Below are positions 14,968-50,024 of a stretch of DNA of 62,862 nt, in pieces (the stretch's first letter is position 1; each line of letters starts with the position of its first letter). The notes beneath the pieces were generated by a model. The model ran no database searches. It had not been told where the DNA came from and was given only the letters and a program-made list of their open reading frames with translations. The position numbers and the translations under genes are program-made. This DNA comes from an uncultured Prevotella sp. Lineage in GTDB: Bacteria > Bacteroidota > Bacteroidia > Bacteroidales > Bacteroidaceae. The stretch is from NCBI GenBank assembly GCA_945830345.1, contig CALZYS010000001.1, forward strand, positions 1 through 62,862, given 5' to 3'.

Positions 14968-15052
14968 TGAACGTTCATAAAAATGTTGTTTTTCAATAGT
15001 TGAACGTTCATAAAAATGTTGTTTTTCAATAGTTGAACATTCATAAAAATGT
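14968..15052. repeat. 33-bp tandem repeat (2.6 copies) upstream of the ATPase promoter
   Basis: tgaacgttcataaaaatgttgtttttcaatagt starts at 14968, 15001 and 15034; -7 box TAACTTTG at 15083-15090. Confidence 0.95.
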
Positions 15053-15117
15053 AAAATGCTTGCATATTTGATTTATTTTCAGTAACTTTGCACGCAAAAA
15101 ACAAGAAATTACATAAT

Positions 15118-16455
15118 ATGAGGAGAAAGATATACCAAAAATTGCTCGAATGGAAGAATAGTCCACGACACAAGCCGCTTGTACTTCTTGGTGCAAGACA
15201 GGTGGGCAAGACCTATATCCTTAAGGAATTCGGCAAAAAAGAATTCGACAACTTCGTATATGTCAACTGTCATAACAACCCTTTTGCCACTTCATTGTTT
15301 TCCGACTTCAACATCAATAGAATACTCTATCAGTTGGAGCAGGACAATGAATGTAGCATCATCGAGGGCAAGACTTTGCTGTTCTTTGATGAAATTCAAG
15401 AAGTGAAGAATGGAATACCGGCATTAAAATACTTCTGTGAAGACAAGCGCGAACTGCATGTGGTTGTGGCAGGTTCAATGTTGGGAATCTCATTGCGCGA
15501 GGATGAGAGCTACCCTGTAGGCAAGATTGACAATCTGAGAATGTACCCTATGACATTCGACGAATTCCTGATGGCCAACGGCAGAGAACGGCTGGCAAAA
15601 ACACTGAGAAACCTGAAATGGGACGAACTGTCAATACACCATGAAACACTTGTGGAATACCTCCGCCAATACTATTTCACCGGAGGTATGCCCGAAGCTG
15701 TATCCACATGGATAGAAGGTCATAACGCCCAAAAGACGAGGAGTGTGCAAAGAGCCATTCTCAGTACATATTTTGGAGATATGGGCAAGCATACCAAGAC
15801 TGAAGTGGAAAGAATACGTATGATATGGAACAGCATACCGTCGCAGTTGGCAAAAGAAAACAAGAAATTCATCTTTGGAGCCGTCAAAAAAGGGGCAAGG
15901 GCAGCCGAATATGAGAAGTCTATCCAATGGCTCGCCGATTCCGGTTTGATATATAAGGTTTGCCGCATCTCCAAGCCTGAAGAGCCGTTGAAGTTCTATG
16001 CCGACAATTCCATCTTTAAGGTATTCCTTCATGATGTTGGCCTACTGGCATGTCTTTGCGGAGCACGATCAAGTGAGATGCTTTTAGGCATGGGAGCGTT
16101 TACAGAGTTCAAGGGCGCATTCACAGAGAACTATGTCATGAACCAAATAAAGTCGTTGGAGGATACTGACATCATTGCCGACGAGATATTTTATTATAGT
16201 AAGGACAATTCGCCATTAGAGGTGGATTTCGTTGTTCAGGGCGGCAAACGGGTTATTCCCACTGAGGTAAAGGCAGAAGAGAACGTCCGCTCAAAATCGC
16301 TGTCAACATTTGTCAACTATGAATTTGCGTCTTATCCCCTAAAGGCTCTCCGCTGCTCCATGCTTCCTTATGCCGACCAGCAATGGATGGAGAACATTCC
16401 ATTGTATGCGGTAGAGGCATTCTTCTCAAAAGAGGGAATTGGAATTGAAGTTTGA
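15118..16455 (+). CDS. AAA_14 ATPase with DUF4143 (PD-(D/E)XK-like) domain
   Basis: GARQVGKT, FFDEIQE, GSMLG, YPMTF.EF, GGMPEAV, DVGLL and EVDF...EVK motifs. Confidence 0.92.
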   Translation: MRRKIYQKLLEWKNSPRHKPLVLLGARQVGKTYILKEFGKKEFDNFVYVNCHNNPFATSLFSDFNINRILYQLEQDNECSIIEGKTLLFFDEIQEVKNGIPALKYFCEDKRELHVVVAGSMLGISLREDESYPVGKIDNLRMYPMTFDEFLMANGRERLAKTLRNLKWDELSIHHETLVEYLRQYYFTGGMPEAVSTWIEGHNAQKTRSVQRAILSTYFGDMGKHTKTEVERIRMIWNSIPSQLAKENKKFIFGAVKKGARAAEYEKSIQWLADSGLIYKVCRISKPEEPLKFYADNSIFKVFLHDVGLLACLCGARSSEMLLGMGAFTEFKGAFTENYVMNQIKSLEDTDIIADEIFYYSKDNSPLEVDFVVQGGKRVIPTEVKAEENVRSKSLSTFVNYEFASYPLKALRCSMLPYADQQWMENIPLYAVEAFFSKEGIGIEV

Positions 16456-16564
16456 TGATATTTATGTTATACTTAATGTTCATATTCTCATGCCGCAAAA
16501 TTACAAAATATATTTGTAATGGGCAAATATTTTGAGGGAAAAATGTCATTTGACTATCTGTTAT

Positions 16565-16770
16565 TTATATTTTTTGATACAAAGCCCAAAGATCATCCAT
16601 TAGTCTATATACTGTCGAAGAGGGATTATCATACTCATGGAGTTGTCTCGCCCTGTTTGAAGCCAGTTTTGACAAAGACAACAGCTTGAGTATGGAGTTG
16701 GCAATCTCCCTATCCATCTGACTTGCACGTGAGACGAAAAGATATTACTCAAACGTAGTTCTAATATCAT
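16565..16770 (-). pseudogene. Collapsed RloA/RloB-type (AAA_21 ATPase + RloB) remnant
   Basis: Starts MILELRLSNIFS (AAA_21-like N-terminus); another frame ends LASNRARQLHEYDNPSSTVYRLMDDLW* (RloB-like C-terminus). Confidence 0.6.
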
Positions 16771-16847
16771 TTTAAGTTCAATATTTGTAATTTGTTTGCA
16801 GATTTGAGGGTTAAATTCAAAAAACAACTCAATTAGGAATAATCTTG

Positions 16848-17630
16848 TCACTCCAGTATCTTCACGTCAAAAGGGGTGTGGGTCATTGCTGAGAGAATGC
16901 GGAGGATTTTGTATTTGTCCTTGACGGATGAGGGCACGGTGAGCCATTTGGCTGATGACACTTGTACTTGGTTGTTGTATCTCTTTACTGATGTGGTTAT
17001 TGGATTGCCGCCAATCTTCAAGTTGGTCTTCTCCACCCTCTCCACTCCTATGTGCCTAACTGTCTTCTTGAATGTATCAAGAGGGTTGTCACCACAAATC
17101 ACTATGCCGTCCTGAAGTGTGACTACAAGGCGGGACTTGCGTTTTCGTGTGTCGCCCTTGCGGCTGTTTTCATTAGTCACAATGGATTCAAAGTCGCCAA
17201 GTTCTATTGTGGCATCAACAGATAGGGACGTGATAATCGACTTCAGCTGACGGTATTTCTGGTCGGTGTCGCCCTGAGCCATCAGATACCATCCGTCAGC
17301 CATTTGCTTTGTCCACTCGGCATAATTATCCACAACCTGTCTTGAAACCAACGGGACATGACAGTTTTCCATATTCAATGCAGCTACACGCTCAATGCCA
17401 ATCTTCTCGATTGTCATAATCATAGTAGCTGTTGCACTGATATCGCAGAATGTGGTGCCATCAGCAAATGTCACCCTGATCCTGCGGCGTTTTGCCCTCA
17501 TGCGTATATCAACGGGAGCTTCCGGCTTGGTCAGCACAACAGGAGCCGTGACTTTAACCGGCACTTCCTTCGCCTCCACAGGAGTATCGTCAAAAAGAAG
17601 CTCAAGCTGTATGTATTCCTTCTTGCCCAT
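16848..17630 (-). CDS. Hypothetical protein with two tandem ~95-aa repeats
   Basis: RIRVTFADGTTFC..TIEKIGIERV..KY versus RLVVTLQDGIVIC..TVRHIGVERV..KY; -7 box near 17664-17671. Confidence 0.75.
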   Translation of the reverse strand: MGKKEYIQLELLFDDTPVEAKEVPVKVTAPVVLTKPEAPVDIRMRAKRRRIRVTFADGTTFCDISATATMIMTIEKIGIERVAALNMENCHVPLVSRQVVDNYAEWTKQMADGWYLMAQGDTDQKYRQLKSIITSLSVDATIELGDFESIVTNENSRKGDTRKRKSRLVVTLQDGIVICGDNPLDTFKKTVRHIGVERVEKTNLKIGGNPITTSVKRYNNQVQVSSAKWLTVPSSVKDKYKILRILSAMTHTPFDVKILE

Positions 17631-17740
17631 AAATGATTTTTACTCAAATAAAACTTTCGGCGGCAAAGTTACTGATTTTATTTGGATTAACCAAATGTTT
17701 CTACTACTTTTTATGACAAAACGCGAAATTCCCAAACATG

Positions 17741-17889
17741 AGTTTCCACCACTTCCACCTGTTCCGCAAGGATGGTGTTAGTGGTGGAAAAGAGATTTTA
17801 TGTATGATGAATTGCCTTCATATCCTACTCTTCCACTATTTCCGCAAGGGTTGGTGGAACTGGTGGAACAGGTGGAATAGGTGGAAACT
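17741..17889. repeat. MITE-like element with 25-bp terminal inverted repeats built of 9-bp units
   Basis: Left agtttccaccacttccacctgttcc is 23/25 to the reverse complement of the right end; ggtggaa at 17853, 17862, 17871, 17880. Confidence 0.7.
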
Positions 17890-18027
17890 GATGCTTGTGA
17901 ATATGATTAATTGATAGCTATACTAATGGCAAATGATTGACTGTAATTGTATAAACTGGATAGCTGTTGAGGTTATGACTGTTTGGCTGGCATTATAATA
18001 TAAGAATAGCAGGCGTGCATGCCTTCT

Positions 18028-18108
18028 GCCAGTTAGCAAAAGATTGCCTGCCTGCTATCAAACAATTGTCTGCTAACTGACAAACAATTGTCCGCTCATT
18101 ACCAAAAT
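18028..18108. repeat. Degenerate 22-bp-period repeat
   Basis: caaa starts at 18037, 18059, 18081, 18103; caaacaattgtc occurs twice exactly. Confidence 0.6.
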
Positions 18109-18113
18109 GGTTT

Positions 18114-18617
18114 TCACTCTTTAATGAAGAAGCGGGAGAACTCACTCTCGAAATTCGGAGTGAACACTTCCTTGCCTATGGCAGCACGTATCTCGTCAAT
18201 AGTCCAAAAGCGCCCACCGGCGAGTTCATCTGCTGACGGAGATATTGTGCCGTCATATACCGTGCGGTTGACATACACAAGCTCGCGCTCCTTCTTGCTT
18301 TCGAATACATACTTGCCCATGCTGACGGGAGTAAAGTCCTCAATGCCAAGTTCCTCACGCACTTCGCGTCGGAGTGCGTCGGAGGGATTCTCACCATAAT
18401 CAATATGTCCGCCCACAGCCGTGTCCCACTTGCCAGGTTGTATGTCCTTCCAGTTGGGCCTACGCTGCAGATACACCTCGCCCCGGGAGTTAAACACATG
18501 CAGGTGAACCACCGGATGGAGCAATTTGCTGCCACTATGACACTCGCCACGGGTGGCTGAGCCCACCACCGTGCCCTCTTCATCCACTAAAGGGAATATT
18601 TCTTGCTGATTGTCCAT
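18114..18617 (-). CDS. NUDIX hydrolase (IPP isomerase/YfcD-like)
   Basis: LLHPVVH, PGKWD..VGGH...GE...A..RE..EELG Nudix box. Confidence 0.9.
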   Translation of the reverse strand: MDNQQEIFPLVDEEGTVVGSATRGECHSGSKLLHPVVHLHVFNSRGEVYLQRRPNWKDIQPGKWDTAVGGHIDYGENPSDALRREVREELGIEDFTPVSMGKYVFESKKERELVYVNRTVYDGTISPSADELAGGRFWTIDEIRAAIGKEVFTPNFESEFSRFFIKE

Positions 18618-18715
18618 AATAATTGCTGAATGTTTATGTAATTTGGCGGCAAAGGTACAAAAATAAACAACAAAATGCAACATTTTAGATATTTTTTTGT
18701 ATATTTGCAGCCGTT

Positions 18716-19288
18716 ATGAACAACAATATAGAGACTCACCCGTTTGAGCCGTTTGTCCCCGAAGGGGCCAAGGTTCTTATGTTAGGCACCTTTCCACCTG
18801 CGCCTCATCGTTGGTGCATGCCTTTCTACTACCCCAACTTCCAAAATGACATGTGGCGCATTATGGGCATCATCTTCTTCGGCGACAAGGAGCACTTTAT
18901 CGTCAAAGGAGAAAAGCGGTTTGACCAACCGGGGATTGAGGCGTTCCTCAGGGAAAATGGCATTGCCATGTATGACACTGCCACAAGGATAGTGCGCACC
19001 AAGAACACCGCCTCGGACAAAGACCTCGACATCATCGAGGAAACCGACGTAAAGGCAATGCTCGACCATATGCCCCAATGCAATACCATCATCACCGCGG
19101 GACAACTCGCCACCACAACGCTCTGCCGCCGCTTCAACGTGAAGGAACCAAAGGTGGGCGAATATGCCGAAGTGGAATACAAAGGGCGCAAAATCCGCAT
19201 CTATCGCATGCCGAGCAGTTCGCGGGCCTATCCCATGAAGCCCGAGCGCAAGGCAGAGCAATATGCCAAGGCACTTGCATCACTATAA
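18716..19288 (+). CDS. Uracil-DNA glycosylase superfamily protein
   Basis: HPFEP, LGTFPP, FYYPN..N.MW and MPSSS motifs. Confidence 0.85.
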   Translation: MNNNIETHPFEPFVPEGAKVLMLGTFPPAPHRWCMPFYYPNFQNDMWRIMGIIFFGDKEHFIVKGEKRFDQPGIEAFLRENGIAMYDTATRIVRTKNTASDKDLDIIEETDVKAMLDHMPQCNTIITAGQLATTTLCRRFNVKEPKVGEYAEVEYKGRKIRIYRMPSSSRAYPMKPERKAEQYAKALASL

Positions 19289-19304
19289 CAAGATATAAAC
19301 CTCA

Positions 19305-19644
19305 TCATAAATCAATGCTATAGCCCAAGGTGAACATCAGAGTGGAGTTGTGCGCATTGTCTGTCATGTTCTTATACACATGCGTTAATCCGAGATTATA
19401 CCGGATATCAAAAGAGATGTTGTGGTATTCATAGGAGAGACCTATGGGAATGGAACAATTCCGGTTGAATGCCAATCTTCGCGGAAATGCCGTAAAATGA
19501 CTCTCTGTATATCTTATCACCAGAGAACTTTGAAAGGTTCACTCCTACACGTGGGTACAACGTCAGTGTACCAGGCTCCTTTTGTGCAAATATGTTACAG
19601 CACAACAACATGCCAACCAATACTGCAAACAATCCTTTCTTCAT
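19305..19644 (-). pseudogene. Outer-membrane beta-barrel (PorT-like) gene with internal deletion
   Basis: Signal peptide plus YPRVGVNLSK in one frame; SIPIGLSYEY...DIRYNLGLT...FTLGY in another; middle missing. Confidence 0.7.
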
Positions 19645-19729
19645 ATCTATATAAATGTTTTTCCTATATAAACGCTTGCCCATAGCGATTATTGTACAAA
19701 ACGATTGTTTTTTGTTTCAAGAAAAGCGA

Positions 19730-19749
19730 AGGGGGCAACGAAGCCCCCC
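19730..19749 (-). terminator. Intrinsic terminator after pectinesterase
   Basis: GC stem ggggc/gcccc directly after the stop, followed by a U-rich tract on the minus strand. Confidence 0.6.
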
Positions 19750-19751
19750 AA

Positions 19752-20723
19752 TTAATCTGCTACCTTATACCAGTCAGGCCGGTCGGAATCCGCAAGCACT
19801 TTCTCTATCGTATAGTCTCCGGCGCCAACCTGATGGCTCCACTTCACTCGCTTGCTCACATCCACGTCCTTTCCTTCAAGTGTCCTTGAAGCGGCCTCTG
19901 CATAAAAGGCCGTCTTCTCTTTCTCAACTCCCCAGTTGAACCATCCCGCGGGGTCTATGTGGTCACCCATAGCACATTCCACGAAAACCGTCTTGGCATA
20001 CGGTCTCCAGGGACGTCCGAGCATTACGCGCTCCACACCCGGTTCTGCGGTGAGGCAGCAGCCGCGGAGAACATATCCGTGGTCTCTGCCCTCGGGCGTG
20101 GATGCCGCAGTGAGGTAGCCGCGCCCTAAACTGTGTATCTGGCAGTTGTCGAAGAAAGCGGTTGAGGAACCGAAGATGAAGTCAACGGTGCCTTCGATGT
20201 AGCAGTCCTTATAGTATTGTTTGGACATCTTGCCGTAGGTGTAAAGCGTGTCCTGATAGCCAAGAAAACGGCAACGGACGAACACGGCGCGGTTGCCTGC
20301 CACAAATGCCGCCACAGCCTGCCCCACTGGTCCCGAGGAGTTGGCGAATGTAATGTCGTAAGCGTGGAAGTCAGGGCCGTAGATGTAGAATGACGATGAG
20401 CCAGATGTGCCCTTGTTCTCGCCAAAAATGTTCGGCTTTGAGGCAAAGTCATCATACGTAAGAATTGTCCCCTCAGCACTCTCGCCGATGAGTGTGACGT
20501 TGAGTTTGCATTCAGCCAGCACCAGTTTCTCCTTATACACTCCGTTGCGTATGAAAATGCGAGTCTCCTTTTCCTTGCGGAAGTCGGGCACTGCGTTGAT
20601 TGCTTCCTGCACAGTCTTGTAGTCACCGCTACCGTCCTGTGCCACGATGATGTCATAGTCCTTTGCCTGCATTCCCGACATAACTGTCAGCAACAGGACA
20701 AGAGTCAAGTAGATTTTCTTCAT
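19752..20723 (-). CDS. Pectin methylesterase (CE8)
   Basis: VAQDGSGDY, G.YKE, QAVA, QDTLY, IEGTVDFIFG and LGRPW motifs; signal peptide. Confidence 0.95.
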   Translation of the reverse strand: MKKIYLTLVLLLTVMSGMQAKDYDIIVAQDGSGDYKTVQEAINAVPDFRKEKETRIFIRNGVYKEKLVLAECKLNVTLIGESAEGTILTYDDFASKPNIFGENKGTSGSSSFYIYGPDFHAYDITFANSSGPVGQAVAAFVAGNRAVFVRCRFLGYQDTLYTYGKMSKQYYKDCYIEGTVDFIFGSSTAFFDNCQIHSLGRGYLTAASTPEGRDHGYVLRGCCLTAEPGVERVMLGRPWRPYAKTVFVECAMGDHIDPAGWFNWGVEKEKTAFYAEAASRTLEGKDVDVSKRVKWSHQVGAGDYTIEKVLADSDRPDWYKVAD

Positions 20724-20948
20724 TTTTGTTTGTTTTTAGGTGTAATACCATTATGTTTTTGCAAAGATACGGTATTTATCACATATAATCATCAAAACGA
20801 TCATGGTTTCACCAACATTTATAACAGTTTAACATTTTATCTTATCCAAAGACAACACTTTTTTCTAAAACATAGGCAACTTTAGGCTGTTTTCCTTCTA
20901 AAGCATAGGCACATTGCTATCATTTCGCCTGTTAAATATCGTAAACCT

Positions 20949-21011
20949 ACGGTTTTGGTAATAAAAACCATAATAGGGATGCTTGTAATAAGAAAAAAAG
21001 TTGTAACTTTG
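20949..21011 (+). promoter_or_regulatory. Promoter with conserved upstream GGTAATAA box
   Basis: GGTAATAAAAAC at 20957 and TAACTTTG at 21004; same geometry at 22876/22924 and 24589/24637. Confidence 0.7.
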
Positions 21012-21066
21012 CACAGAAAATTGGCTATACAAGTATTTATGTTGAATTAATATTATGATATAATTT

Positions 21067-22233: not shown

Positions 22234-22297
22234 CAGACATCAAAATGATTATCAATGCTCGACATCAAGAAATCGAGGTTAATAACAATAAATATTT

Positions 22298-22852
22298 ATG
22301 GTAAAAAAAGTATTGGTAATATCTACAAGTTTACGCCCCAGGAGCAATTCCGAGGCGTTGGCAGACGAATTTGTACGTGGAGCTGTTGAGGCTGGTCACG
22401 AAGTGGAGAAACTGTCGTTGCGCGGCAAGGAGATAGCATTCTGCCGTGGATGCATGGCATGTCATAGTCTAAGGACTTGTGCCATAAAGGACGACATGAT
22501 TCCCATCATACAGAAGATGCACGACGCCGACATCATCGCCTTCGCCACTCCTATCTATTATTACGAGATGTGTGGACAGATGAAGACGATGCTCGACCGT
22601 GCAAATGCTCTCTACGACTCCGACTACCATTTCCGCGACATCTATCTGTTTACCGCCGCTGCCGAGGATGAACCCGATGTGCCCCAAAGGGCAATAGAGG
22701 GACTTGGAGGCTGGATTGCCTGTTTCCCCAAGGCTCGCCTTGCCGGCCAAGTATTTGCAGGAGGAGTAAACGACATGGGCGACATAGAAGGCCACCATGC
22801 CCTCGCCAAGGCGTATGAAATGGGTAAAGCATTATCAATGCCCTTTGAATGA
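22298..22852 (+). CDS. Flavodoxin-like / iron-sulfur flavoprotein (FMN reductase family)
   Basis: SLR..SNS, CRGCMAC....C..KDD and TPIYYY motifs. Confidence 0.88.
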   Translation: MVKKVLVISTSLRPRSNSEALADEFVRGAVEAGHEVEKLSLRGKEIAFCRGCMACHSLRTCAIKDDMIPIIQKMHDADIIAFATPIYYYEMCGQMKTMLDRANALYDSDYHFRDIYLFTAAAEDEPDVPQRAIEGLGGWIACFPKARLAGQVFAGGVNDMGDIEGHHALAKAYEMGKALSMPFE

Positions 22853-22878
22853 ACCATACATTTTTCCATAAAAATGGT

Positions 22879-22921
22879 AATAATCCCCGAAATCTGTATA
22901 ACGCAGGTTTCGGGGATTATT
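22879..22921. repeat. 18-bp inverted repeat over the hydrolase promoter
   Basis: aataatccccgaaatctg-N7-caggtttcggggattatt (17/18); abuts TACCTTTG at 22924. Confidence 0.8.
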
Positions 22922-22939
22922 CGTACCTTTGCAGCCGAT

Positions 22940-24427: not shown

Positions 24428-24525
24428 CGACAGTGCTCGACGTATATGCCATATCAAGAGACCGTGTAGCCGACTCAAAGGAGAGCATACACAAGTGGCT
24501 GAAGAGAATAGGTATGATGAAATGA
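24427..24525 (+). pseudogene. Orphan 3' end, probably flavodoxin
   Basis: Reads ATVLDVYAISRDRVADSKESIHKWLKRIGMMK*, resembling flavodoxin C-termini. Confidence 0.45.
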
Positions 24526-25811: not shown

Positions 25812-25824
25812 AAATTTTTGCAGT

Positions 25825-35854: not shown

Positions 35855-35868
35855 TCCCGCACTCAGGA

Positions 35869-36355: not shown

Positions 36356-37480
36356 TCAATACTTCGTTTTCAGCCAATACGCGAACACTGGGTCCTGAAT
36401 TACAGTTGAGTCAGGAAGGATGTCTATCAAATCCTTGTCCTGAAGAGCTTTCCTCAGGTTCTTGATATTGGCTGAGGTGCCGAGATCGTATCTTGCCAAG
36501 ACTTCGCGCGACGAGAAGTTTTTCTCGCCATTCGCAACTGCCTGAAGAAAACTTATCTGCTTGGCAGTCAGGTTGTCGATGATATTGCTGAACAAGAGGC
36601 TAAGTTGGTTGACGAGCGAATCAAATGCCGACTTTACGATAGCCGTGTCGCAAGTCTCCATGGTGTGAAGCCATGTCAACTGAGCTAGTTGCTGTACGTA
36701 ATAAGGGTGACATTCCACCAGCTGGGCAATGAGCAACGCGTCATCATCAGAGATGTGCTTCCCTGTGTAATCGAATCTTCGTGTGATGTATCTCACCCAT
36801 TCCTCCTGACAGATTTTGTCCAAGAACATCATGTCGCCGAATTTATAGAACGGCATCTCATAGTTGCTGAAGATGTCGAGAAGCATGTGGCGCTTGCTTC
36901 CAAACATACAATACCCCACCCTGTTATGCATCTGCCAATGCGAGCGCAATTTACGTTGGAATCCCAAAGAATCGTCATACGAGTCGACATTCTGGAATTC
37001 ATCAATACAAACAATGAATTTCTTTCCCTTTTCCTCCGCTATCTTTTGCGGCAGGTCGAGAATATCGTCAAACGAATATTGCTTGTCTTTGAAGTCAATA
37101 CCAAACGCCAATTCATATTTCATACTGCTGTCGCTGAGAGATAGTTTAGGTCCGAAAGTGCCAACATATTTCTTTACAGCAATTATAAACTCATCCATCT
37201 TTGTGAAAGATGCTGAAAGTATGGCATTTACGTAGGTCTGATAAAACTGCCCCTCCGTGCGGCAGTTGAATATGTCAACCTTGCATATAAGGTAGTCCCT
37301 GTCGTGCTTGATATCCTCAAGCACATGGCAAACCAATGATGTCTTTCCCCATCTGCGCGGAGAGATTATTATAGTATTGACAAGTCCAAGAAGGTTGTTC
37401 TTCAACTTCTTGGAATCCTCCTCGCGGTCGGTGAAATTCATGCCGTCGGCAATTTTTCCATATACAAAAGGTATATCCAT
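36356..37480 (-). CDS. Archaeal-ATPase-like AAA protein with C-terminal winged helix
   Basis: PFVYG, FTDRE, SPRRWGKTS, IDEFQN, GSKRH, HPYYVQ and DPVF..WL motifs. Confidence 0.88.
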   Translation of the reverse strand: MDIPFVYGKIADGMNFTDREEDSKKLKNNLLGLVNTIIISPRRWGKTSLVCHVLEDIKHDRDYLICKVDIFNCRTEGQFYQTYVNAILSASFTKMDEFIIAVKKYVGTFGPKLSLSDSSMKYELAFGIDFKDKQYSFDDILDLPQKIAEEKGKKFIVCIDEFQNVDSYDDSLGFQRKLRSHWQMHNRVGYCMFGSKRHMLLDIFSNYEMPFYKFGDMMFLDKICQEEWVRYITRRFDYTGKHISDDDALLIAQLVECHPYYVQQLAQLTWLHTMETCDTAIVKSAFDSLVNQLSLLFSNIIDNLTAKQISFLQAVANGEKNFSSREVLARYDLGTSANIKNLRKALQDKDLIDILPDSTVIQDPVFAYWLKTKY

Positions 37481-39975: not shown

Positions 39976-39991
39976 AATACCATATTATTAT

Positions 39992-41863: not shown

Positions 41864-41876
41864 GTCTTTATTGTTT

Positions 41877-44174
41877 TCAGAACTTGATATTTGCTGTGAA
41901 TTCAACGGTGAACGGACGGAGATAGCTACCCGTCATGAGGCAGTTCTTGATGTCCTTTGCCTCCTCCTTGGTGATAAGTTCAGCACCTGCGATGCTACCC
42001 TTGGCACCTGTCTGGTTGAGGAAGTTGACAACTGTGCAACCGAGTGAGAGATGCTTGTTCACGTCCCAGTTCACACCGCCGAATGTCTCCCAGTGACCGT
42101 TGAAGTAGTATGCCTCGTTGATGTTGGCGTAGGTCTTGCTGAAGTAGCGGAAACTGGTCCAGAGCTTCAGTTTCGGAGTAATCATGTAGCTTGGGTCAAG
42201 TTCGACAAGCACCTGCGGCACCTCTGCCACGATATTTCCCGTAGCGTTGATTTTGCCCTCATATCCGTCACTAAACCTTACCGATGTCTCATACTTCTTA
42301 TAAGTAGGCTTCTGATATGTGAAGAGAGCGTGCAGCTCAAATCCCTTGAACGGACGCATCACAGCATCCGTTGTCCATCCCCAAGTCTGTATGTCGTAGG
42401 TCAGCGGTGCTGCCATAATCTCCTGACCGTGCTGCAGGTTGAGCGTAGAGTTGTTGTTGGTCTTCGAGATATATGAGATGAGCGAGGTTAGGCTCAGCCA
42501 ATTGTTGTTGTAGTAGATACCGGCGCGACCGAGCGGAACACTGATTTTGTTGGTGTTAGGGAGTGTTGCGGGCGAGAAGTTCTCAAACTTCGGGTGCTGC
42601 ACGATGTAGGTGAAGTCGCCGGTGAAACCGAACTTTTCTGTCATCTTATATGTGAGTGCGGCAGTGAAGTCATAGTTCAGCCAGCTATAGTCGAGGTCGG
42701 CGGGAGTGATCTTCGTGCCATCGGCAGCTTTGGCTCCGAGGTGATAGTTGGCGAATCGTCCCACATAGTCGCCTGCCGAGTTCTTCACTGCGGCATTCTC
42801 GCCCTTGATGGTCTGCCATTCGAAGCGGGCACCGTAATAGACGTTCAGTTTCTTCGAGATGTCCCAGTCGTGTGTGAAGTAAAGGGCGAGCTTGTTCTCC
42901 TTACCCTTGTAGTACTCCGATGCATTCTTATTATAGTCATAGAAATAGTAGTCACGCTTATTGGCGTCGTAGAGGCGCACAGCATAGTTGCCGTCGTTAG
43001 GCACGCTCTGGTCGTACATTGTGGTGTTCGATGTATAGTCGATGTCATAGAGCCACTCGTTTACACCAATGCGCAGTGTGCTTGTAGAGAACTTCTTGAT
43101 AAGCTCTGAGGTGAGGAGGAATTCGTCGATGTCGCCCGAATTGAGGCATGACATTCTCGACTGCACATACTCGCCAGTGTAGTTCTCGTGCTTTCCCTCG
43201 GGAGTAATCAACATATAATTATATGCCGGATTGCCCTTCACATTCATCAACGACATTGGGCTCTGATATACGAGTGCTCCGTGGGCGTGGTCATAGCGTG
43301 CACTGATGTTCCATGTCAGGCCGTTGTCCCAGCGATACTTGTTTGAGATGAAGAACTGGCTTGAGCGGTTTTCCTCGGCATCGTAGAGTGAAGTTTCCTT
43401 GATTTCACCGGTGCGCATGTCCATATATGTCATGTTTGCGTCAACTGGCAGATAGGATGTGGTACCGAGCTTGAACTTGCCGTATTCCTTCACGCTTCCG
43501 TCGCCAACATAGATAAACGGAGCCGACTGTGTGGCGAAGGTGTAGAGCGGGTGGCTGTTGGAATAGTGATACATGGCTGTCAGTTCACCCTTGCCCTTGT
43601 CATAGAGGTGGGTGAGAGCTACCTTATATATCTGAGTGCGGTCCTGATACTGCGAACTGCGAATCTTGAATGTTCCGGGGTCGAAGTCCTGGTACATGTT
43701 GGCACTGTAGAACCAGTTTTCACCGATGGAACCGTTCAAATTCAACGAATATTCCTGCTGACCGAAGTGGTTGGCCTTGTAGTTGAGAGAGCCATGGAAT
43801 CCCTTCTCGCCGAGCTTTGTCCATGAGTTGACGGCATAACCGATGTTACCCGTTGTTATTGCTGTCTCCGAGATTTTCAGCAGTCCCACATGACTATGGC
43901 TTGCATCGGAGCGCCAGTTGGAGTTGACACTGTGAGGATTTGTAGCAAAGGTAACGGGGAGACCGTTTTCCAGTACGTTGACATCGGCAGACGGCAGACC
44001 TATCTGGATCTCGCGAGGTCCGTTGGCACTGGCGGCATTGAGCATCACGTTGCGGTTGCCCTCTTCCTTGCTGTTGTTCTCACTCTCCTGTGCACTCATA
44101 TAAAGAGGTGCACACAAGATTGCGGCTGCAATCATAATCTTTGCCTGAGGCAGATTGAAATGCTTTGTTTTCAT
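41877..44174 (-). CDS. TonB-dependent receptor (non-SusC type)
   Basis: Signal peptide, short plug, amphipathic strands, terminal FTANIKF; no SusC IDG/LKDA motifs. Confidence 0.8.
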   Translation of the reverse strand: MKTKHFNLPQAKIMIAAAILCAPLYMSAQESENNSKEEGNRNVMLNAASANGPREIQIGLPSADVNVLENGLPVTFATNPHSVNSNWRSDASHSHVGLLKISETAITTGNIGYAVNSWTKLGEKGFHGSLNYKANHFGQQEYSLNLNGSIGENWFYSANMYQDFDPGTFKIRSSQYQDRTQIYKVALTHLYDKGKGELTAMYHYSNSHPLYTFATQSAPFIYVGDGSVKEYGKFKLGTTSYLPVDANMTYMDMRTGEIKETSLYDAEENRSSQFFISNKYRWDNGLTWNISARYDHAHGALVYQSPMSLMNVKGNPAYNYMLITPEGKHENYTGEYVQSRMSCLNSGDIDEFLLTSELIKKFSTSTLRIGVNEWLYDIDYTSNTTMYDQSVPNDGNYAVRLYDANKRDYYFYDYNKNASEYYKGKENKLALYFTHDWDISKKLNVYYGARFEWQTIKGENAAVKNSAGDYVGRFANYHLGAKAADGTKITPADLDYSWLNYDFTAALTYKMTEKFGFTGDFTYIVQHPKFENFSPATLPNTNKISVPLGRAGIYYNNNWLSLTSLISYISKTNNNSTLNLQHGQEIMAAPLTYDIQTWGWTTDAVMRPFKGFELHALFTYQKPTYKKYETSVRFSDGYEGKINATGNIVAEVPQVLVELDPSYMITPKLKLWTSFRYFSKTYANINEAYYFNGHWETFGGVNWDVNKHLSLGCTVVNFLNQTGAKGSIAGAELITKEEAKDIKNCLMTGSYLRPFTVEFTANIKF

Positions 44175-44459
44175 AAAGGATAATTTTTTTTGTTATTTCG
44201 ATTTCGTGGTGCAAAATTATATCTATTTTTCTCGCAAAACAAGTCTGCGTAGCGTTTTGGTAAGTGGATAGTATAAGGATTTTCTATCAACTATCTGATT
44301 ATCAACATTATCGTCCTATCCCATCTTACGCCTTTAGTAAATACCCAAGAATACACTTTATCGAAAAAAATGGAGTTTATAGATAAAAAAAACTAATTTT
44401 TCATTGCCAATTAAAAATAAAGACGTATATTTGCAGTCCCAAACCCAAGCATATATATT

Positions 44460-46040
44460 ATGAACTACAAAAAAACAACCATGTTTATCGCTCTTGCCCT
44501 ATTGTTCTCATGCAGTGGGCATAACGACAAACTATATGATGAGTTGGAAACCTGCCTTGCAAAGCGTCAGGAAGTGACTAAGGCCAAGGAGGATAAAATA
44601 GCCGACTTTAAAGCCAAGCTGAACAAATGCAAGGATGAACAAAGACAATTCACACTATGCGACAGTCTCGTCAAGCACTATTACCTGTTCAACTCCGACT
44701 CAGCCTCAAAGTATATCGACCTTGCGATGAAAAAGGCCGTAAGCCTCAATCGTGCCGACTATATAAATAAGGTGAGGATTCTTGATGCATATATCCTCGC
44801 CACCTCAGGTCACTACAATGATGCCGAGACAACCATGCAAAATGTTGATACAGCTGCCCTTGATAAGAAAAACTTACGACTCTACTACGAGACATGGCGA
44901 TGGATATACAACACGTGGGAGGCATACGTCAAGGACGAAGCCCGCGCCGATATCTACGCAAAGAAGGCTGATGCCTATCTTGACACTCTGTGCATGATAG
45001 AACCAGGAAACACTGCCGACGGTCTTTATTTCAAGGCAGAAAAGCAGATGAACTTAGGCAACCTGAAGGAGGCGGAAAAGAATTATCTCGCTTGCATATC
45101 CAAGCTCGACAAGTCGAAGAGGAGATATGCCAGTGCATGCTGCGCCCTTGCCATGGTTTATGAGATGCAGGAACGATACGATGACTATGAGCACTACATG
45201 ATTCTCGCAGCCATCTCCGACCAGTCGATACCACTGAAGGAGAATCTCGCAATGCAGGAACTGGCTGAATACCTGTCGCACCACAAGATGGAATATAATC
45301 AGGCACAACGCTACTTGGTGTATTCGGTGGAGGACGCCATATACTACAACAACCGTCTGCGACTCACCGAGATAGCTCGCAAACTGCCTGACATAGCTTT
45401 AGGCTATCAGAAAGCTGAGGACACTATCGCCAAATACAATCTCACCGTCATTGCCATCATGGGGGCACTCGCCATCGGATTGCTTGTTGTCGTAATGTAT
45501 AGTCTAAAGCAAAACAAAAAACTCATTGCCCAAAGAAAAGACAGGATCATACTCAACGAAAAGCTCAAGGCCACAAATATCAGTCGCGACAAATATGTCA
45601 GTCTATTCATCGACCTTTGCGCCGTGGCAATCGACAAATACAACAACCTCACCAAGACCATCGAGCGCAAGGTGAAGGCTCACCAAGTGGACGACCTGCT
45701 CGTGCTTCTAAACAACAACAGGCTAAAGGACAAGGACGTGAAAGAGGTGCTCTTCACCTTCGACCGTGCTTTCCTCAATCTCTATCCGAAGTTTGTGGAT
45801 GAATTCAACCTTCTGCTGCTGCCCGAACATCGCATCCAGTTGAAGGAAGGCCAACTACTCAACTCCGAACTGCGCATCATGGCGTTCGTGAGAATGGGAA
45901 TGAAGGACACAAACCGCATAGCCACCTTGCTCAACTATTCGGCTCAAACCATCTACAACTATCGCTCAACCCTCAAGAACCACGCCATCGACAAGGACAA
46001 CTTCGAGGATAACGTGGCAAAACTGTGTGAGGTCAACTGA
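44460..46040 (+). CDS. SusR-like (DUF6377) membrane-anchored transcriptional regulator
   Basis: Periplasmic TPR-like region, TM helix, FD..FL.LYP.FV..FN.LL, ELRI.A..R.G and TIYNYR; divergent from the TBDT. Confidence 0.88.
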   Translation: MNYKKTTMFIALALLFSCSGHNDKLYDELETCLAKRQEVTKAKEDKIADFKAKLNKCKDEQRQFTLCDSLVKHYYLFNSDSASKYIDLAMKKAVSLNRADYINKVRILDAYILATSGHYNDAETTMQNVDTAALDKKNLRLYYETWRWIYNTWEAYVKDEARADIYAKKADAYLDTLCMIEPGNTADGLYFKAEKQMNLGNLKEAEKNYLACISKLDKSKRRYASACCALAMVYEMQERYDDYEHYMILAAISDQSIPLKENLAMQELAEYLSHHKMEYNQAQRYLVYSVEDAIYYNNRLRLTEIARKLPDIALGYQKAEDTIAKYNLTVIAIMGALAIGLLVVVMYSLKQNKKLIAQRKDRIILNEKLKATNISRDKYVSLFIDLCAVAIDKYNNLTKTIERKVKAHQVDDLLVLLNNNRLKDKDVKEVLFTFDRAFLNLYPKFVDEFNLLLLPEHRIQLKEGQLLNSELRIMAFVRMGMKDTNRIATLLNYSAQTIYNYRSTLKNHAIDKDNFEDNVAKLCEVN

Positions 46041-46123
46041 GATGCAAGGTTTTATATATCGATTCAGATGTTTTTTTATTGAATTCGTATTCTTTTCTAA
46101 GGAAAATTGAATGTTGTTAAGTT

Positions 46124-47458
46124 TTACACCTCATTCAACAGAAAAGCCATATACAAAGGCAATGTAATAACCCCACCTGAGACTCCCACATTATAATTCC
46201 CGAGCTTAATCGCCTTTGAGACGTGATACTTCTCGGGATGCGCAAGGATGGTCTTCGTGCTCTTCACATTGCCACTTGTCGCCTTCACCTCCACCAGTGT
46301 ACACTCACCTCTATAGCGCATTACAAAATCCACCTCAAGACCGCTATCTTTTCGGTAATAATATAGCTTCCGTCCCATTTTACCGAAAATGTCTGCTATG
46401 AGATTCTCAAAAATTGCTCCCTTATATCCCAAGAGATTACCGTTGAGTATGTCGTGTGCAGTCTCACGCTCCAACATACAGACAAACAATCCTGTATCTG
46501 CCATATAGACCTTGAACTGCTCATATATGGCATTCCCGTCAAGCGGCAATTCGGGAATCTCAAGATTATAACACCTGCGGATTATTCCGGCATCCTCTAT
46601 CCATTGGATACTTCCCTGATAGTCGCGCCCACGACCGTTCGCCCTGACCTGTGCGTATGCAAACTTCTTGTTTTCACGACTTAACTGCTTTGGTATCGAT
46701 TCAAAACATTCCCTAATTCTGGGTTTGTCTAATTGGGAGGCATATTTGAGCATATCCGCCTTGTATCCTTCGATAATTGCCTTTTGTACGCTTACTACCT
46801 CCTGAATGTTATGTGTCTCCATAAAAGCAGTAACCGCACGTGGCATTCCTCCTACAATGACATACTGAAGGAGCAGTTGGGTCATCCGTCGATGAATGAC
46901 TTCGGGAATGGGAACGAGAGAAAACAAACTATCCTCGAGTTTTCTGAAAACAGCCTCTTGAATGCCATTCGCCCACAACCACTCCTCAAAATCCATTGGA
47001 TACATATCCACAATCTTTTCATAACCCACCGGCACTGGTGCAAATTTGTCATCATCCGCATCCTTCGACCTATAACCACTGACGCCGAGCAAGGAACCGG
47101 TACAGATAACATCAAAACGTCCGTCCATTTTGAAGAACTTCAGGGATGTACGGGCTCTCGGACAATCCTGTATCTCGTCAAAGACAAAGCATGTATCACC
47201 AGGAACTATACGTACATTTGGCAGCAGCGTCGATATGTTGACCAATATATTGTCTATCTCAAGAGAATCATCAAATATTGACTTGTATTGAGGATTTAGG
47301 AAAAAGTCCAAATAAACCACATTACCGTAGTTCTTACGTGCAAAGTCGAGCACAGAGAATGTCTTACCGCATTGGCGACATCCTTTGATAACAATTGGCA
47401 TTTTGTCCTTACTTTTCTTCCAGTCCAAAAGCACTTTTTCTATCTTTCTCCTAAACAT
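46124..47458 (-). CDS. AAA_14 ATPase with DUF4143 domain
   Basis: GCRQCGKT, FDEIQD, TGSLLG, YPMDFEE, GGMP, DTGL and EVDF...EVK motifs. Confidence 0.92.
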   Translation of the reverse strand: MFRRKIEKVLLDWKKSKDKMPIVIKGCRQCGKTFSVLDFARKNYGNVVYLDFFLNPQYKSIFDDSLEIDNILVNISTLLPNVRIVPGDTCFVFDEIQDCPRARTSLKFFKMDGRFDVICTGSLLGVSGYRSKDADDDKFAPVPVGYEKIVDMYPMDFEEWLWANGIQEAVFRKLEDSLFSLVPIPEVIHRRMTQLLLQYVIVGGMPRAVTAFMETHNIQEVVSVQKAIIEGYKADMLKYASQLDKPRIRECFESIPKQLSRENKKFAYAQVRANGRGRDYQGSIQWIEDAGIIRRCYNLEIPELPLDGNAIYEQFKVYMADTGLFVCMLERETAHDILNGNLLGYKGAIFENLIADIFGKMGRKLYYYRKDSGLEVDFVMRYRGECTLVEVKATSGNVKSTKTILAHPEKYHVSKAIKLGNYNVGVSGGVITLPLYMAFLLNEV

Positions 47459-47487
47459 CTGACAATAAATTGATTAAATAAAACAAT

Positions 47488-47575
47488 ACACGTTTTTCAA
47501 ACGACTTTATGCGATGATACACACGTTTTTCAAACGACTTTTATCATACCTGCGCCACTTTTTCAAGCGACTTTT
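47488..47575. repeat. Three direct repeats at 33-bp spacing in the ATPase leader
   Basis: tttttcaa(a/g)cgacttt at 47493, 47526, 47559; lies between the -7 box (47581-47588) and the ATG. Confidence 0.92.
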
Positions 47576-47636
47576 GGGCGCAAAGTTAATCTTTTTCCTT
47601 CAACAAACAAAGAAATATAGAGATTTTTTCATTAAC

Positions 47637-49535
47637 TTAAATATTCCTTAACAATCCCCTCAGCAGATAAGTAGCATTCTGATTGCGCGCCACTCCTGAT
47701 GTTATTTTGTAGCTATATGTCACGTTGTCCGTGAGTTCTATCTCAAAGCAGTAGTTATGGAAGCGGTCGGGGTGATCTGCGGACATCTTTGAGAGTTCAA
47801 GGTCGTGGGTGGCAATGATTCCTGTAACGGGAAGTTTTGCTATGGACTCAAGGAACATTCTCGAACCACTCAACTTGTCGGCAGAATTTGTTCCCTTCAG
47901 TATTTCATCGAGGATTATCAGCGTATGGCGGTTTTCCTTACATTCACTAATAAGCTGTTTCAGACGCAACAGTTCTGCATTGAAATAACTAATGCCATGA
48001 GCAAGGTCATCGGTTGTGCGCATACTACTAAACAGAGAGAAGATGCTCACCCTCAACCACTTGGCGAAAATTGGCATACCGCACATGGCGAGAATGTAGT
48101 TGACGCCAATGGCACGGAGGAAAGTGCTTTTGCCTGCCATATTGGCACCAGTCACAATATAATAATGCGAATCGCTGATGCAGAAATCGTTTGGCACAGC
48201 CTTCTCTCCTAAAAAAGGATGATACAGCGCTTCCGCGCTATAAACCACCTTGTCACCCTCATCTATTTCCACATCCTTTGCGTAAGGCTCATTGTAGCGG
48301 AATGTTGCCATTGACACGAGAGCGTCAAATTTGCTTACGGCTTCTATCCACTCACCCATCCTTGCCAAATAGCTGGTTTTCCACTTGGAGAACCGTCTGA
48401 TGAGAAAAAAATCGTTCAGAAAGAACGTATTGCAGAATATGCGATATAGAGGATTGCCGTTGCGGTCGAGACTGTCCATAAGCCTCTTTAGTTCAGTGAA
48501 AGAGCTGAGGGCATTGCCTTCACCGAGAGACAGACGAGAGAGTATATCGACATTGTCCTTGGCGGAGTAATGCCCTTGTGAGATAATCTCCATCAGATAG
48601 ACATACATGCTCATCTGCTTGCTTACCGCCCCAACAGTCTTGTTTATACTTCTTAATGGGCGTGAACACAAGACTATCATAAACAGCAGATGAAGCAATC
48701 CCCATAAAAACGGCACATTCGACGGAACTGCATCCATCAAGGCTGCAACGAAAGAAGAGAGAAATCCTACGACCGAGGCTACAGCAACGACTATCGCCGC
48801 GTAAGAAGACGCAAACAAAGGCAAGGAAATTGACTTTGCCTTTTCAACTACTCCCATTATCTCGTCTGTATTGATGATGTCTCCCCTTAGCTGTCCCACT
48901 GCAATAAACGAGGTTCTTAAACTTACATCATCAGCAAGTTCGTTGATAGCATCCCTTTGGTCTTCTATTTCCCGTCTTGTCCTTGTTGACGCAGAACCAA
49001 GCTGTGCTGCGAGGTAGTCGCTTCCGCCGGATGTTACAGTGCGGTTAATCCGTTGGAAAAGTGACTGTTCTCCAAACACATCCATATCGAAGGAATAAGC
49101 ATGACATGGATTGACATACTGTTTGCCATCGCGGAATGCCTTGAAATCACCATTGAGGTACGCCATTTCGTTCACATACACACTGCGAACTGCCTTTAGC
49201 CTCTTCATCTTGTCTCCATTGGCAACATCCATTCTGCGTAATGTAATATATGCTAAAACAAAGAATATTGCCAAAACAATGACAACAGTCTCACCATAAT
49301 ACATGGCATATATGGCAATACATGATATTGCAAGAATAAAAGCAGCCAACTGACCTATGACAAACCATTTTGCCTTCTTTTCACATCGGCTAATTTCATC
49401 AGTATGGACATTAACGTTATCTTCATATTGCTGATATATAGAATTCTTCAGAGGATGAAGTTCTGCCATTTCAATTTCAGGATTTTGTGATTTCATAATA
49501 ATAGGATAACTATACAAATTCATACTTTTAGTCAT
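47637..49535 (-). CDS. Membrane-anchored MutS-related ATPase (MutS domain V); start uncertain
   Basis: N-terminal TM helices, HPFL, TGANMAGKSTFLR, SYF.AEL, LDEILKGTNS and ATHD; no mismatch-binding domain seen. Confidence 0.88.
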   Translation of the reverse strand: MTKSMNLYSYPIIMKSQNPEIEMAELHPLKNSIYQQYEDNVNVHTDEISRCEKKAKWFVIGQLAAFILAISCIAIYAMYYGETVVIVLAIFFVLAYITLRRMDVANGDKMKRLKAVRSVYVNEMAYLNGDFKAFRDGKQYVNPCHAYSFDMDVFGEQSLFQRINRTVTSGGSDYLAAQLGSASTRTRREIEDQRDAINELADDVSLRTSFIAVGQLRGDIINTDEIMGVVEKAKSISLPLFASSYAAIVVAVASVVGFLSSFVAALMDAVPSNVPFLWGLLHLLFMIVLCSRPLRSINKTVGAVSKQMSMYVYLMEIISQGHYSAKDNVDILSRLSLGEGNALSSFTELKRLMDSLDRNGNPLYRIFCNTFFLNDFFLIRRFSKWKTSYLARMGEWIEAVSKFDALVSMATFRYNEPYAKDVEIDEGDKVVYSAEALYHPFLGEKAVPNDFCISDSHYYIVTGANMAGKSTFLRAIGVNYILAMCGMPIFAKWLRVSIFSLFSSMRTTDDLAHGISYFNAELLRLKQLISECKENRHTLIILDEILKGTNSADKLSGSRMFLESIAKLPVTGIIATHDLELSKMSADHPDRFHNYCFEIELTDNVTYSYKITSGVARNQNATYLLRGLLRNI

Positions 49536-49714
49536 AACAACGACGTCATGTAAATCGGAAGATAGACTATGCCGTTGTCGATTTTCATATCCATGCTATG
49601 GATAATGTATGTATAGCTTTTACCTACTCGTCTGGCTCCCTCAATCAAAAGGGCAACCCTTCCGTTCTCGGTGTTTTTCCACCTCCAAAACGTGTCAATT
49701 ATTTTTCTTCTCAT
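49532..49714 (-). pseudogene. AAA-DUF4143 ATPase collapsed to its N- and C-termini
   Basis: MRRKI...LLIEGARRVGKSY is fused in frame to YIIHS.D...DNGIVYLPIYMTSLL*. Confidence 0.85.
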
Positions 49715-49785
49715 AGCAGCAAATGTGAATTTCGGTGCAAAGTTACTGATTTATATTGGTTTAACCAAACATTTCACCAACTATC

Positions 49786-49866
49786 TGCACCAAAACACGA
49801 TTTTTATTCGTGCGATATTGCACCAAAACACGATTTTTTATGATGGCAACTGCACCCAAACACGAT
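49786..49866. repeat. Three direct repeats at 33/32-bp spacing upstream of the ATPase remnant
   Basis: tgcacc(a/c)aaacacgat at 49786, 49819, 49851; -7 box at 49738-49745. Confidence 0.92.
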
Positions 49867-50024
49867 ATTGCCTACAAGCTTTAATAACAAGAGGTTTCTT
49901 GTCTTTGTTGGCCTTCCAGCCTCTGAGGATATTGTCAATCTTTCTTTGCAGTGCTGCCATTTTTTCAAGGGACTTTTATCATACCTGCGCCACTTTTTCA
50001 AGCGACTTTTATGCCGCAAAGATA
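49862..50024 (-). pseudogene. Second ATPase remnant: promoter, 33-bp repeats and 5' 33 codons
   Basis: MAALQRKIDNILRGWKANKDKKPLVIKACRQ from ATG at 49960; leader 49961-50010 is nearly identical to 47526-47575. Confidence 0.85.

What the first reader, a model, noticed from the sequence alone, without database searches (positions are those of the whole stretch)
14968..50024. Every AAA-DUF4143-type ATPase start carries direct repeats at ~33-bp spacing, in clade-specific sequences
Seen: four of four starts have promoter-proximal repeats. (a) tgaacgttcataaaaatg at 14968/15001/15034. (b) tttttcaa(a/g)cgacttt at 47493/47526/47559. (c) tgcacc(a/c)aaacacgat at 49786/49819/49851. (d) tttttcaag(g/c)gactttt at 49961/49994. 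The spacing is conserved while three unrelated sequences are used. The two genes with similar N-termini (IKGCRQ and IKACRQ) share both the repeat sequence and its position downstream of the -7 box. The two GAR(Q/R)VGK genes have their repeats upstream of it. Established: 33 bp is about three helical turns, as in phased iteron or operator arrays, and these proteins combine a P-loop ATPase with a PD-(D/E)XK-like domain of unknown function. Inference: each ATPase clade travels with a cognate binding array on which it oligomerises (autoregulation, self-marking, or a mobility/addiction site). I know of no description of such a protein-plus-array module.
Basis: partly seen in the sequence, partly recalled or inferred. 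Interest (0 to 1): 0.8.

Follow-up and report, generated by a model that had tools for sequence, protein, structure and literature searches.

The report
Self-operator arrays of PDC-S01 ATPase-nucleases
Four evenly spaced DNA repeat sets sit on the promoters of two intact and two broken copies of a very common but uncharacterised ATPase-nuclease gene, relatives in many other genomes carry their own versions, and each protein likely binds its own set through a predicted winged-helix domain to keep its gene switched down.

Summary
The four repeat sets are at the stated coordinates. Two head intact PDC-S01 (AAA_14+DUF4143) genes; two head deletion relics of 60 and 40 codons. Repeats at 32-34 bp lie upstream of 67 of 121 family genes from related genomes against 10 of 581 control genes. 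A ~20-bp box and the spacing are kept while spacers drift. Period is clade-specific: 32-33, 23, 40 or none, so 'every' overstates. Box similarity follows the protein tree (r 0.50) and peaks at the predicted winged helix (residues 241-295); that location beats tree simulations (1 of 210), its height alone does not. Arrays flank or contain the -7 promoter box and occur nowhere else in the genome. Best reading: cognate operator arrays for autorepression (binding inferred, untested). Corrections: boxes a, b, d are one family; b and d share 40 identical bases and swap alleles at one site; position relative to -7 is not clade-fixed. Ten literature searches found no description. This scan noted the same module before in other genomes.

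The parts
14968..15052 (+). Array a: three 19-bp boxes at 33-bp period, ending 31 bp upstream of the -7-like box; units 1 and 2 identical over all 33 bp
   Evidence: same box upstream of close relatives L227, L235-L237, L250-L252
15083..15090 (+). Bacteroidales -7-like promoter box of gene a (consensus recalled, not from a call)
   Evidence: sequence
15118..16455 (+). Gene a: intact 445-aa AAA_14+DUF4143 (PDC-S01) protein, Walker A GARQVGKT
46124..47458 (-). Gene b: intact 444-aa AAA_14+DUF4143 (PDC-S01) protein; model shows AAA+ core, helical domain, predicted winged helix (about 245-319), PD-(D/E)XK domain
47488..47575 (-). Array b: three boxes at 33-bp period between the -7-like box and the start codon; the promoter-proximal unit (47536-47575) is identical to d's
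47581..47588 (-). -7-like promoter box of gene b
   Evidence: sequence
49532..49714 (-). Relic c: 60-aa in-frame fusion of the N- and C-termini of a GARRVGKS-clade gene; break at 49611/49612, where a contig of run X15 holds 1167 more bases
49738..49745 (-). -7-like promoter box of relic c
   Evidence: sequence
49786..49870 (-). Array c: three boxes, spacing 33 and 32, upstream of the -7-like box
49838..49960 (-). Relic d: 40-codon frame; first 31 codons are the N-terminus of a GCRQ-clade gene, cut at the distal box of array c
49956..50012 (-). Array d: two boxes 33 bp apart, directly before the start codon (three boxes in the allele of G054)
50017..50024 (-). -7-like promoter box of relic d
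   Evidence: sequence

Best explanation
The repeats are ~20-bp boxes held at a clade-specific period on the promoter of each PDC-S01 ATPase-nuclease gene, and they are likely operator sites that the encoded protein binds through its predicted winged-helix domain to repress its own transcription. Shown: the arrays, their family specificity, their restriction to the gene's own promoter, their co-transfer with the gene, and box-protein covariation centred on residues 241-295. Predicted: an AAA+/helical/winged-helix/PD-(D/E)XK architecture like SSO1545 and Cdc6/Orc1. Inferred: one protein unit per box, cooperative ATP-dependent assembly across 2-5 boxes on nearly one face of the helix (33 bp is about 3.1 turns; period set by each clade's oligomer geometry), occlusion of RNA polymerase, and so a self-limiting dose of a potentially toxic nuclease in whatever locus the gene lands. 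As a side effect, similar arrays give homology for allele exchange.
For: Family-specific enrichment: 67 of 121 vs 10 of 581 and 3 of 149 controls; 77 of 87 ATPase genes in loci of b's relatives, 55 of 69 for a's relatives, 10 of 18 on viral contigs. Box columns 0.77-1.00 identical between neighbouring copies (the last seven inflated by the anchor), spacer columns 0.38-0.63; only 17 of 163 pairs are near-perfect 33-bp duplications. Spacing 33 in 195 and 32 in 54 of 266 intervals. Period by clade: 22-23 bp in 10 of 10 GPKWC-type rows, 40 bp in 4 of 6 GQRRV rows. Boxes a, b, c occur only at their own promoters in 2.6 Mb. Model pLDDT 88.7 with three helices and two strands at 245-319; residues 1-330 align to 2fna (Z 14.8, rmsd 4.3, 259 aligned), 2qen (Z 14.6) and Cdc6 1fnn (Z 9.8). 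Partial correlation of box distance with 20-residue windows peaks at 241-295 (0.35 all pairs, 0.25 close pairs), about 750 bp from the array, above the physically linked N-terminus; neutral characters simulated on the tree matched the region-vs-rest contrast in 1 of 210 and 2 of 210 runs; a 5'-UTR control showed no peak. 107 of 121 arrays have a -7-like box within or beside them. Nuclease motif E351/D377/E390/K392 kept in 120, 118, 120, 121 of 121. Homology between relatives often starts at the array or -7 box and ends at the stop; 132 neighbours fall into 108 families.
Against: No binding or expression data. The height of the covariation peak is not unusual by itself: some window reached it in 95 of 210 and 81 of 210 simulations, and the 241-295 limits were set from the model's helices after I had seen the scan. 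54 of 121 family genes lack a 32-34 array at this threshold, and some clades (GPRQS, GPRRV rows) show no array at any period. 35 of 121 arrays lie wholly upstream of the -7 box, a position equally typical of activators. Arrays c and d persist before dead genes. Pfam assigns no HTH family to the region. Kin are not independent, so the Fisher and Mantel values overstate.
Confidence: 0.6

Rival explanations
1. The protein binds its own array, but mainly as a dock that holds the nuclease inactive (a DNA antitoxin or self-mark); loss or degradation of the array, for example during phage infection, would free the nuclease. Repression would be secondary.
For: Same covariation and cis-only distribution as the best explanation; nuclease motif conserved; relics c, d and the G054 relic kept their arrays while losing the gene body; 7 of 142 genes have a second array behind the stop; the one published test cloned coding sequence only and saw no protection (10.1101/2024.09.26.614923, passages).
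Against: Arrays sit on the promoter in most cases, which a pure dock does not need; G054 lacks gene a together with its array; relics are found through their 5' ends, so array retention is partly a detection bias; cloning without the array was evidently tolerated in E. coli in that paper's single case.
Confidence: 0.15
2. The arrays are recombination or mobility sites on which the ATPase-nuclease acts to move or exchange its own gene.
For: Neighbours differ in almost every genome; at the site behind the MutS-like gene the window has allele b with a d-type first unit, G054 has a d-type allele and run X16 shows the same joint; 7 of 142 genes are bracketed by two arrays.
Against: 135 of 142 have no downstream array; the G054 site lacking gene a shows no target duplication or terminal repeats and has also lost the neighbour's promoter; for clades with the array downstream of -7, shared sequence begins at the -7 box, not the array; ordinary homologous recombination between similar arrays explains the swaps.
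Confidence: 0.1
3. The arrays are binding sites for a host factor or a curved-DNA promoter element (phased A-tracts), conserved with the gene but not read by its product.
For: Boxes are A-tract rich with A-runs about 11 bp apart; a Fic/DUF4172 gene and a few other promoters of this genome also show 33-bp repeats.
Against: One genome holds at least five different private boxes, each at one promoter only; the same box type follows the gene into other phyla (L037, L038, L042); covariation is with the protein's predicted winged helix.
Confidence: 0.08
4. The arrays act as RNA (leader repeats bound or cut by the protein) or are neutral slippage products.
For: Arrays b and d lie downstream of the -7-like box and would be transcribed; array a has one perfect 33-bp duplication; this genome is rich in intergenic tandem repeats.
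Against: 35 of 121 arrays are wholly upstream of -7; no Rfam match; spacers diverge while box and spacing persist; genome-wide background peaks are at multiples of 7, not 33.
Confidence: 0.05

Closest known systems
PADLOC phage-defence candidate PDC-S01 (Pfam AAA_14 PF13173 + DUF4143 PF13635; COG1373)
   Same: Genes a and b are members (E 1e-167 and 7e-149). Described as the fourth most common defence entry across prokaryotes, an ATPase fused to a PD-(D/E)XK domain (PMC12988326, passages), and the most frequent single locus in rumen genomes (PMC13356809, passages).
   Different: The passages read mention no upstream repeats, winged helix or autoregulation. Function is untested or negative: one representative, cloned as coding sequence only, was not among those protecting E. 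coli against T4, T5, T7.
Archaeal Orc1/Cdc6 initiators and ORB boxes; SSO1545 (2fna) and PABY2304 (2qen)
   Same: AAA+ plus C-terminal winged-helix fold over residues 1-330. Orc1/Cdc6 read repeated boxes with the winged helix (recalled).
   Different: An extra PD-(D/E)XK domain; arrays sit on a gene's own promoter, many per genome, no sign of an origin.
Plasmid iterons with Rep initiators (recalled)
   Same: About 20-bp direct repeats in helical phase, private to a cognate winged-helix protein that represses its own promoter.
   Different: No Rep family match; chromosomal solitary genes; period 33 with a free 12-13-bp spacer; protein is an ATPase-nuclease.
STAND ATPase transcription regulators such as MalT
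   Same: ATP-dependent oligomers that act at promoters (MalT multimerises and binds mal promoters: PMC5760070, passages); MalT-containing entry 8bob is a weak fold hit.
   Different: These regulate other genes through a LuxR-type HTH and a ligand sensor; here the site is cis-only and the C-terminus is a nuclease fold.

Membership tests
PDC-S01 / AAA_14+DUF4143 | AAA_14 and DUF4143 profile matches above cut-off in one single-gene protein | tested here: met
   Genes a and b
PDC-S01 / AAA_14+DUF4143 | Full-length open frame (relics c and d) | tested here: not met
   60 and 40 codons; c is longer by 1167 bases in another strain
PDC-S01 / AAA_14+DUF4143 | Intact Walker A/B and PD-(D/E)XK residues | tested here: met
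   118-121 of 121 per catalytic position
PDC-S01 / AAA_14+DUF4143 | Anti-phage activity | not testable with these tools
   Published single test negative; 19 of 108 neighbour families match PADLOC at 1e-15, several probably housekeeping cross-hits, no control run
Autoregulatory operator array | Repeats on or beside the gene's own promoter and not elsewhere in the genome | tested here: met
   the -7 consensus is recalled and start sites are not mapped
Autoregulatory operator array | DNA-binding domain in the product that covaries with the site | tested here: inconclusive
   Predicted winged helix; location of covariation significant, height not
Autoregulatory operator array | Direct binding and repression | not testable with these tools
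   needs EMSA and reporter
Iteron-Rep replicon | Helically phased direct repeats | tested here: met
Iteron-Rep replicon | Adjacent Rep-family initiator gene | tested here: not met
   Pfam gives AAA_14+DUF4143 only
Orc1/Cdc6-ORB origin | AAA+ plus winged-helix fold | tested here: met
   (1fnn Z 9.8, rmsd 10.1, 245 aligned; 2qby Z 9.4)
Orc1/Cdc6-ORB origin | Replication origin function | not testable with these tools
   no assay; many copies per genome at unrelated loci argue against
Transposon / IS / integron cassette | Terminal repeats or target duplication at an empty site | tested here: not met
   G054 lacks gene a without either, (one case)
Transposon / IS / integron cassette | Adjacent transposase or integrase | tested here: inconclusive
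   None among 30 window ORFs scanned; neighbours in relatives were scanned only against PADLOC
CRISPR or other structured RNA array | Rfam match, spacers of guide length, cas neighbours | tested here: not met
   0 Rfam matches; spacers 12-13 bp; no cas family among 30 ORFs

The most novel reading that the evidence does not exclude
PDC-S01 is a one-gene toxin system whose antitoxin is its own promoter DNA: the ATPase assembles on the phased array through a clade-specific winged helix, which both silences the gene and keeps the nuclease parked; removal of the array (phage-driven host DNA breakdown, or loss of the locus) releases it. The family would then be a large natural library of orthogonal protein-array pairs with built-in periods of 23, 32-33 and 40 bp, and tests that omit the array would miss its behaviour.
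Probability: 0.15. Interest if true: 0.85.

Novelty: new variant of a known kind. Interest (0 to 1): 0.58.

Why it matters
PDC-S01 is among the most common candidate defence genes and has no known substrate, ligand or regulation. A private DNA box, readable from sequence for each clade, gives a first direct biochemical handle (binding, oligomer geometry, nuclease control), names the residues to swap, and points out that the one published functional test left the array out. It would also explain how a solitary nuclease gene can land at a new locus in nearly every genome and coexist with several paralogues without cross-talk.

Tried and rejected
Folding the 88-residue winged-helix region alone gave pLDDT 48 and was not used. 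Sequence search of the PDB found only weak midasin Walker A hits. Pfam gave no HTH name for the region. Rfam: nothing. A first IQ-TREE run timed out; the tree is FastTree. RNA-library contigs cover gene b in four runs but cannot show transcription, strand or level. DNA contigs of four runs show many joints around the arrays but are too mixed to count. A DUF234 search across the phylum returned 4 of 61 genomes and was not pursued. Literature: searches for DUF4143 (15), AAA_14 with repeats (36), COG1373 (39), PDC-S01 (52), iteron-like autoregulation of defence genes (59), STAND PH-type (72), PADLOC candidates (86), SSO1545 (89), Cdc6 mini-ORB autoregulation (92, no result) and Prevotella 33-bp repeats (97) gave no description of these arrays; I saw listings and term passages only, no supplements, and subscription papers are not held. 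The SSO1545 structure paper was not held, so its winged helix is recalled. No complex prediction was run. Rows dropped before counts: four ATPases of other families and five with under 200 bp upstream (130 to 121); of 195 DUF4143 matches, 45 were not listed and 130 loci or regions were fetched; for covariation 179 of 200 proteins had a callable box and 121 remained below 88% identity, which selects for array-bearing genes.
Full report
Observation. Genes a (15118-16455 +, 445 aa) and b (46124-47458 -, 444 aa) match AAA_14 and DUF4143 and PADLOC PDC-S01. The other two starts are relics. c is a 60-aa in-frame fusion of the N- and C-terminal ends of a family gene; its C-terminal end matches the longer ATPase end before the MutS-like gene in L031, and a contig of run X15 holds 1167 further bases at 49611/49612, so the gene is intact in length in another strain. 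d keeps 31 codons and is cut at the distal box of array c.

Is it more than chance? I took DUF4143 matches from the own genome and 30 related genomes, fetched 130 loci without regard to repeats, and kept 121 genes with 200 bp upstream. A 16-bp window with at least 14 matches at lag 32-34 occurs in 67 of 121, against 10 of 581 other genes of this genome and 3 of 2420 shuffles. Of the ten control hits, two are divergent neighbours of ATPase genes and two share an orphan array of family type on contig C17. Flanking genes in other genomes give 3 of 149, two of which are ATPase arrays on inspection. The lag profile of the family peaks at 33 (49) and 32 (22), with side peaks at 23 (10) and 40 (4); the control peaks at multiples of 7. 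Relatives of b give 77 of 87, of a 55 of 69, viral contigs 10 of 18. Kin are not independent, so p-values overstate, but the pattern spans deep branches of the tree.

Anatomy of the array. Neighbouring copies agree at 0.77-1.00 over about 20 positions and 0.38-0.63 over the remaining spacer; 17 of 163 pairs are near-perfect duplications. Intervals are 33 in 195 and 32 in 54 of 266. Period follows clade: 32-34 in the large GARQ/GARR/GCRQ branch, 22-23 in all 10 GPKWC-type rows, 40 in 4 of 6 GQRRV rows, none seen in the GPRQS and GPRRV rows. Boxes a, b and d belong to one family with a shared A-run/(G)TGT half and a variable 5' half; c resembles the boxes of its own clade (L026, L150, L155). Each window box occurs only at its own promoter in the 2.6-Mb, 80% complete assembly, so there is no sign of a regulon. 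Relative to the Bacteroidales -7 box (consensus recalled), the array contains it in 48, lies upstream in 35, downstream in 24, and no match is found in 14 of 121; both positions occur within the GCRQ clade, so position is not clade-fixed.

The protein. The AlphaFold model of b (pLDDT 88.7) shows an AAA+ core, a helical domain, three helices and two strands at 245-319, and a restriction-endonuclease-like C-terminus. Foldseek ranks 2qen, 2fna, CED-4 and Orc1/Cdc6 entries first; VIA-align aligns residues 1-330 to 2fna (Z 14.8) and 2qen (Z 14.6), Cdc6 at Z 9.8. That these solved proteins end in a winged helix is recalled; the isolated domain did not fold. Catalytic E351, D377, E390, K392 are kept in 118-121 of 121. 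DUF4143 is listed as a PD-(D/E)XK family of unknown function (PMC3424549, table passage).

Covariation. Among 121 non-redundant array-bearing proteins, box distance correlates with protein distance (r 0.50, 0 of 500 permutations). After removing the rest of the protein, 20-residue windows at 241-295 correlate best (0.35; 0.25 among closer pairs), although they lie about 750 bp from the array while the linked N-terminus reaches 0.17. Neutral characters simulated on the tree matched the region-versus-rest contrast in 1 of 210 and 2 of 210 runs, and the last 30 bases before the start codon showed no peak. Against this, some window reached the observed height in 95 and 81 of 210 simulations, and I fixed the region after seeing the scan. 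The turn and start of the predicted recognition helix (270-283) are variable within a conserved frame and sort with box types in the GCRQ clade, with exceptions. This is suggestive, not proof.

Mobility. Array and gene travel together: shared sequence between relatives often begins at the -7 box or first box and ends at the stop, and 132 neighbours of b's relatives form 108 families. 19 of 108 match PADLOC models, four of them other PDC-S01; no control was run. The close relative G054 lacks gene a with its array and the neighbour's promoter, without target duplication. Behind the MutS-like gene, G054 carries a d-type relic where the window has b; the window's first b unit is identical to d over 40 bases including the spacer, and run X16 shows the same joint. 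Arrays therefore act as exchange points, which also means b and d are not independent evidence. 7 of 142 genes have a second array behind the stop. Ordinary homologous recombination suffices; nothing shows a site-specific mechanism.

Mechanism. Most likely (0.6) each protein binds its boxes through the winged helix, assembles cooperatively over 2-5 boxes nearly in helical phase and lowers its own transcription, limiting a potentially toxic nuclease wherever the gene lands. Arrays, specificity of occurrence and co-transfer are shown; the fold is predicted; binding, oligomerisation and repression are inferred. Rivals: a dock that keeps the nuclease inactive (0.15), a mobility site (0.1), a host-factor or curvature element (0.08), RNA or neutral repeats (0.05).

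What is known. PDC systems were named by embedding in other defence loci and left untested (10.1101/2024.01.29.577857, passages). [quoted passage not shown] One representative cloned as coding sequence did not appear among the protective ones (10.1101/2024.09.26.614923, passages). Ten searches of the held library found no description of upstream arrays; supplements were not read and subscription papers are missing. It works like an iteron or ORB array with a cognate winged-helix protein (recalled) but is not a replicon. Earlier notes of this scan report the same module in other genomes (17 findings; for PDC-S27); they gave me the PDC-S01 name as a lead, which I confirmed, and are not independent evidence.

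Verdict. Real, family-wide, apparently undescribed in print; a new variant of autoregulatory operator arrays attached to a very common orphan family. Interest 0.58.

Noticed in passing
G000 contigs C176, C18, C34, C53 (L318), upstream of ~480-aa GRRRVGKT ATPases: A second ATPase-nuclease family (C53 gene is PDC-S27) has promoter repeats at 52-54 bp, with alternating box orientation at C53, in 4 of 8 such genes viewed.
   Followed up: partly
G000:C17:13603-13680 (L352): Orphan array of PDC-S01 type (32-33 bp, -7-like box inside) now before a 158-aa tRNA_SAD-domain gene, with no ATPase; looks like a captured promoter.
   Followed up: partly
G000:C119 near 4170 (L351): A DUF4172+Fic gene has a 33-bp-spaced repeat upstream; the layout may extend to another solitary defence-type family.
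   Followed up: partly
window 20858-20910: Two copies of a 15-bp repeat 33 bp apart between the pectinesterase and Fe-ADH genes, no ATPase nearby.
   Followed up: no
window 36356-37480 -: A fifth, more distant P-loop ATPase (weak AAA_14/ATPase_2) without an upstream array.
   Followed up: partly
L081, L082, L090 (about 2255-2384 and 3835-3961): The ATPase cassette is bracketed by a ~127-bp duplicate of the 5' end of the downstream gene, as expected from integration of a circle or a long target duplication.
   Followed up: partly
window 47637-49535 - and G000:C220: The MutS-like gene between relics c/d and gene b has a 77% identical second copy in the genome.
   Followed up: no
G000 intergenic regions genome-wide: Many intergenic tracts of 7-base repeats, often as inverted arrays, dominate the background at lags 14, 21, 28, 35, 42.
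   Followed up: no
window 50158-50209: 23-bp inverted repeat with 6-base loop behind the pfkB gene, terminator-like.
   Followed up: no
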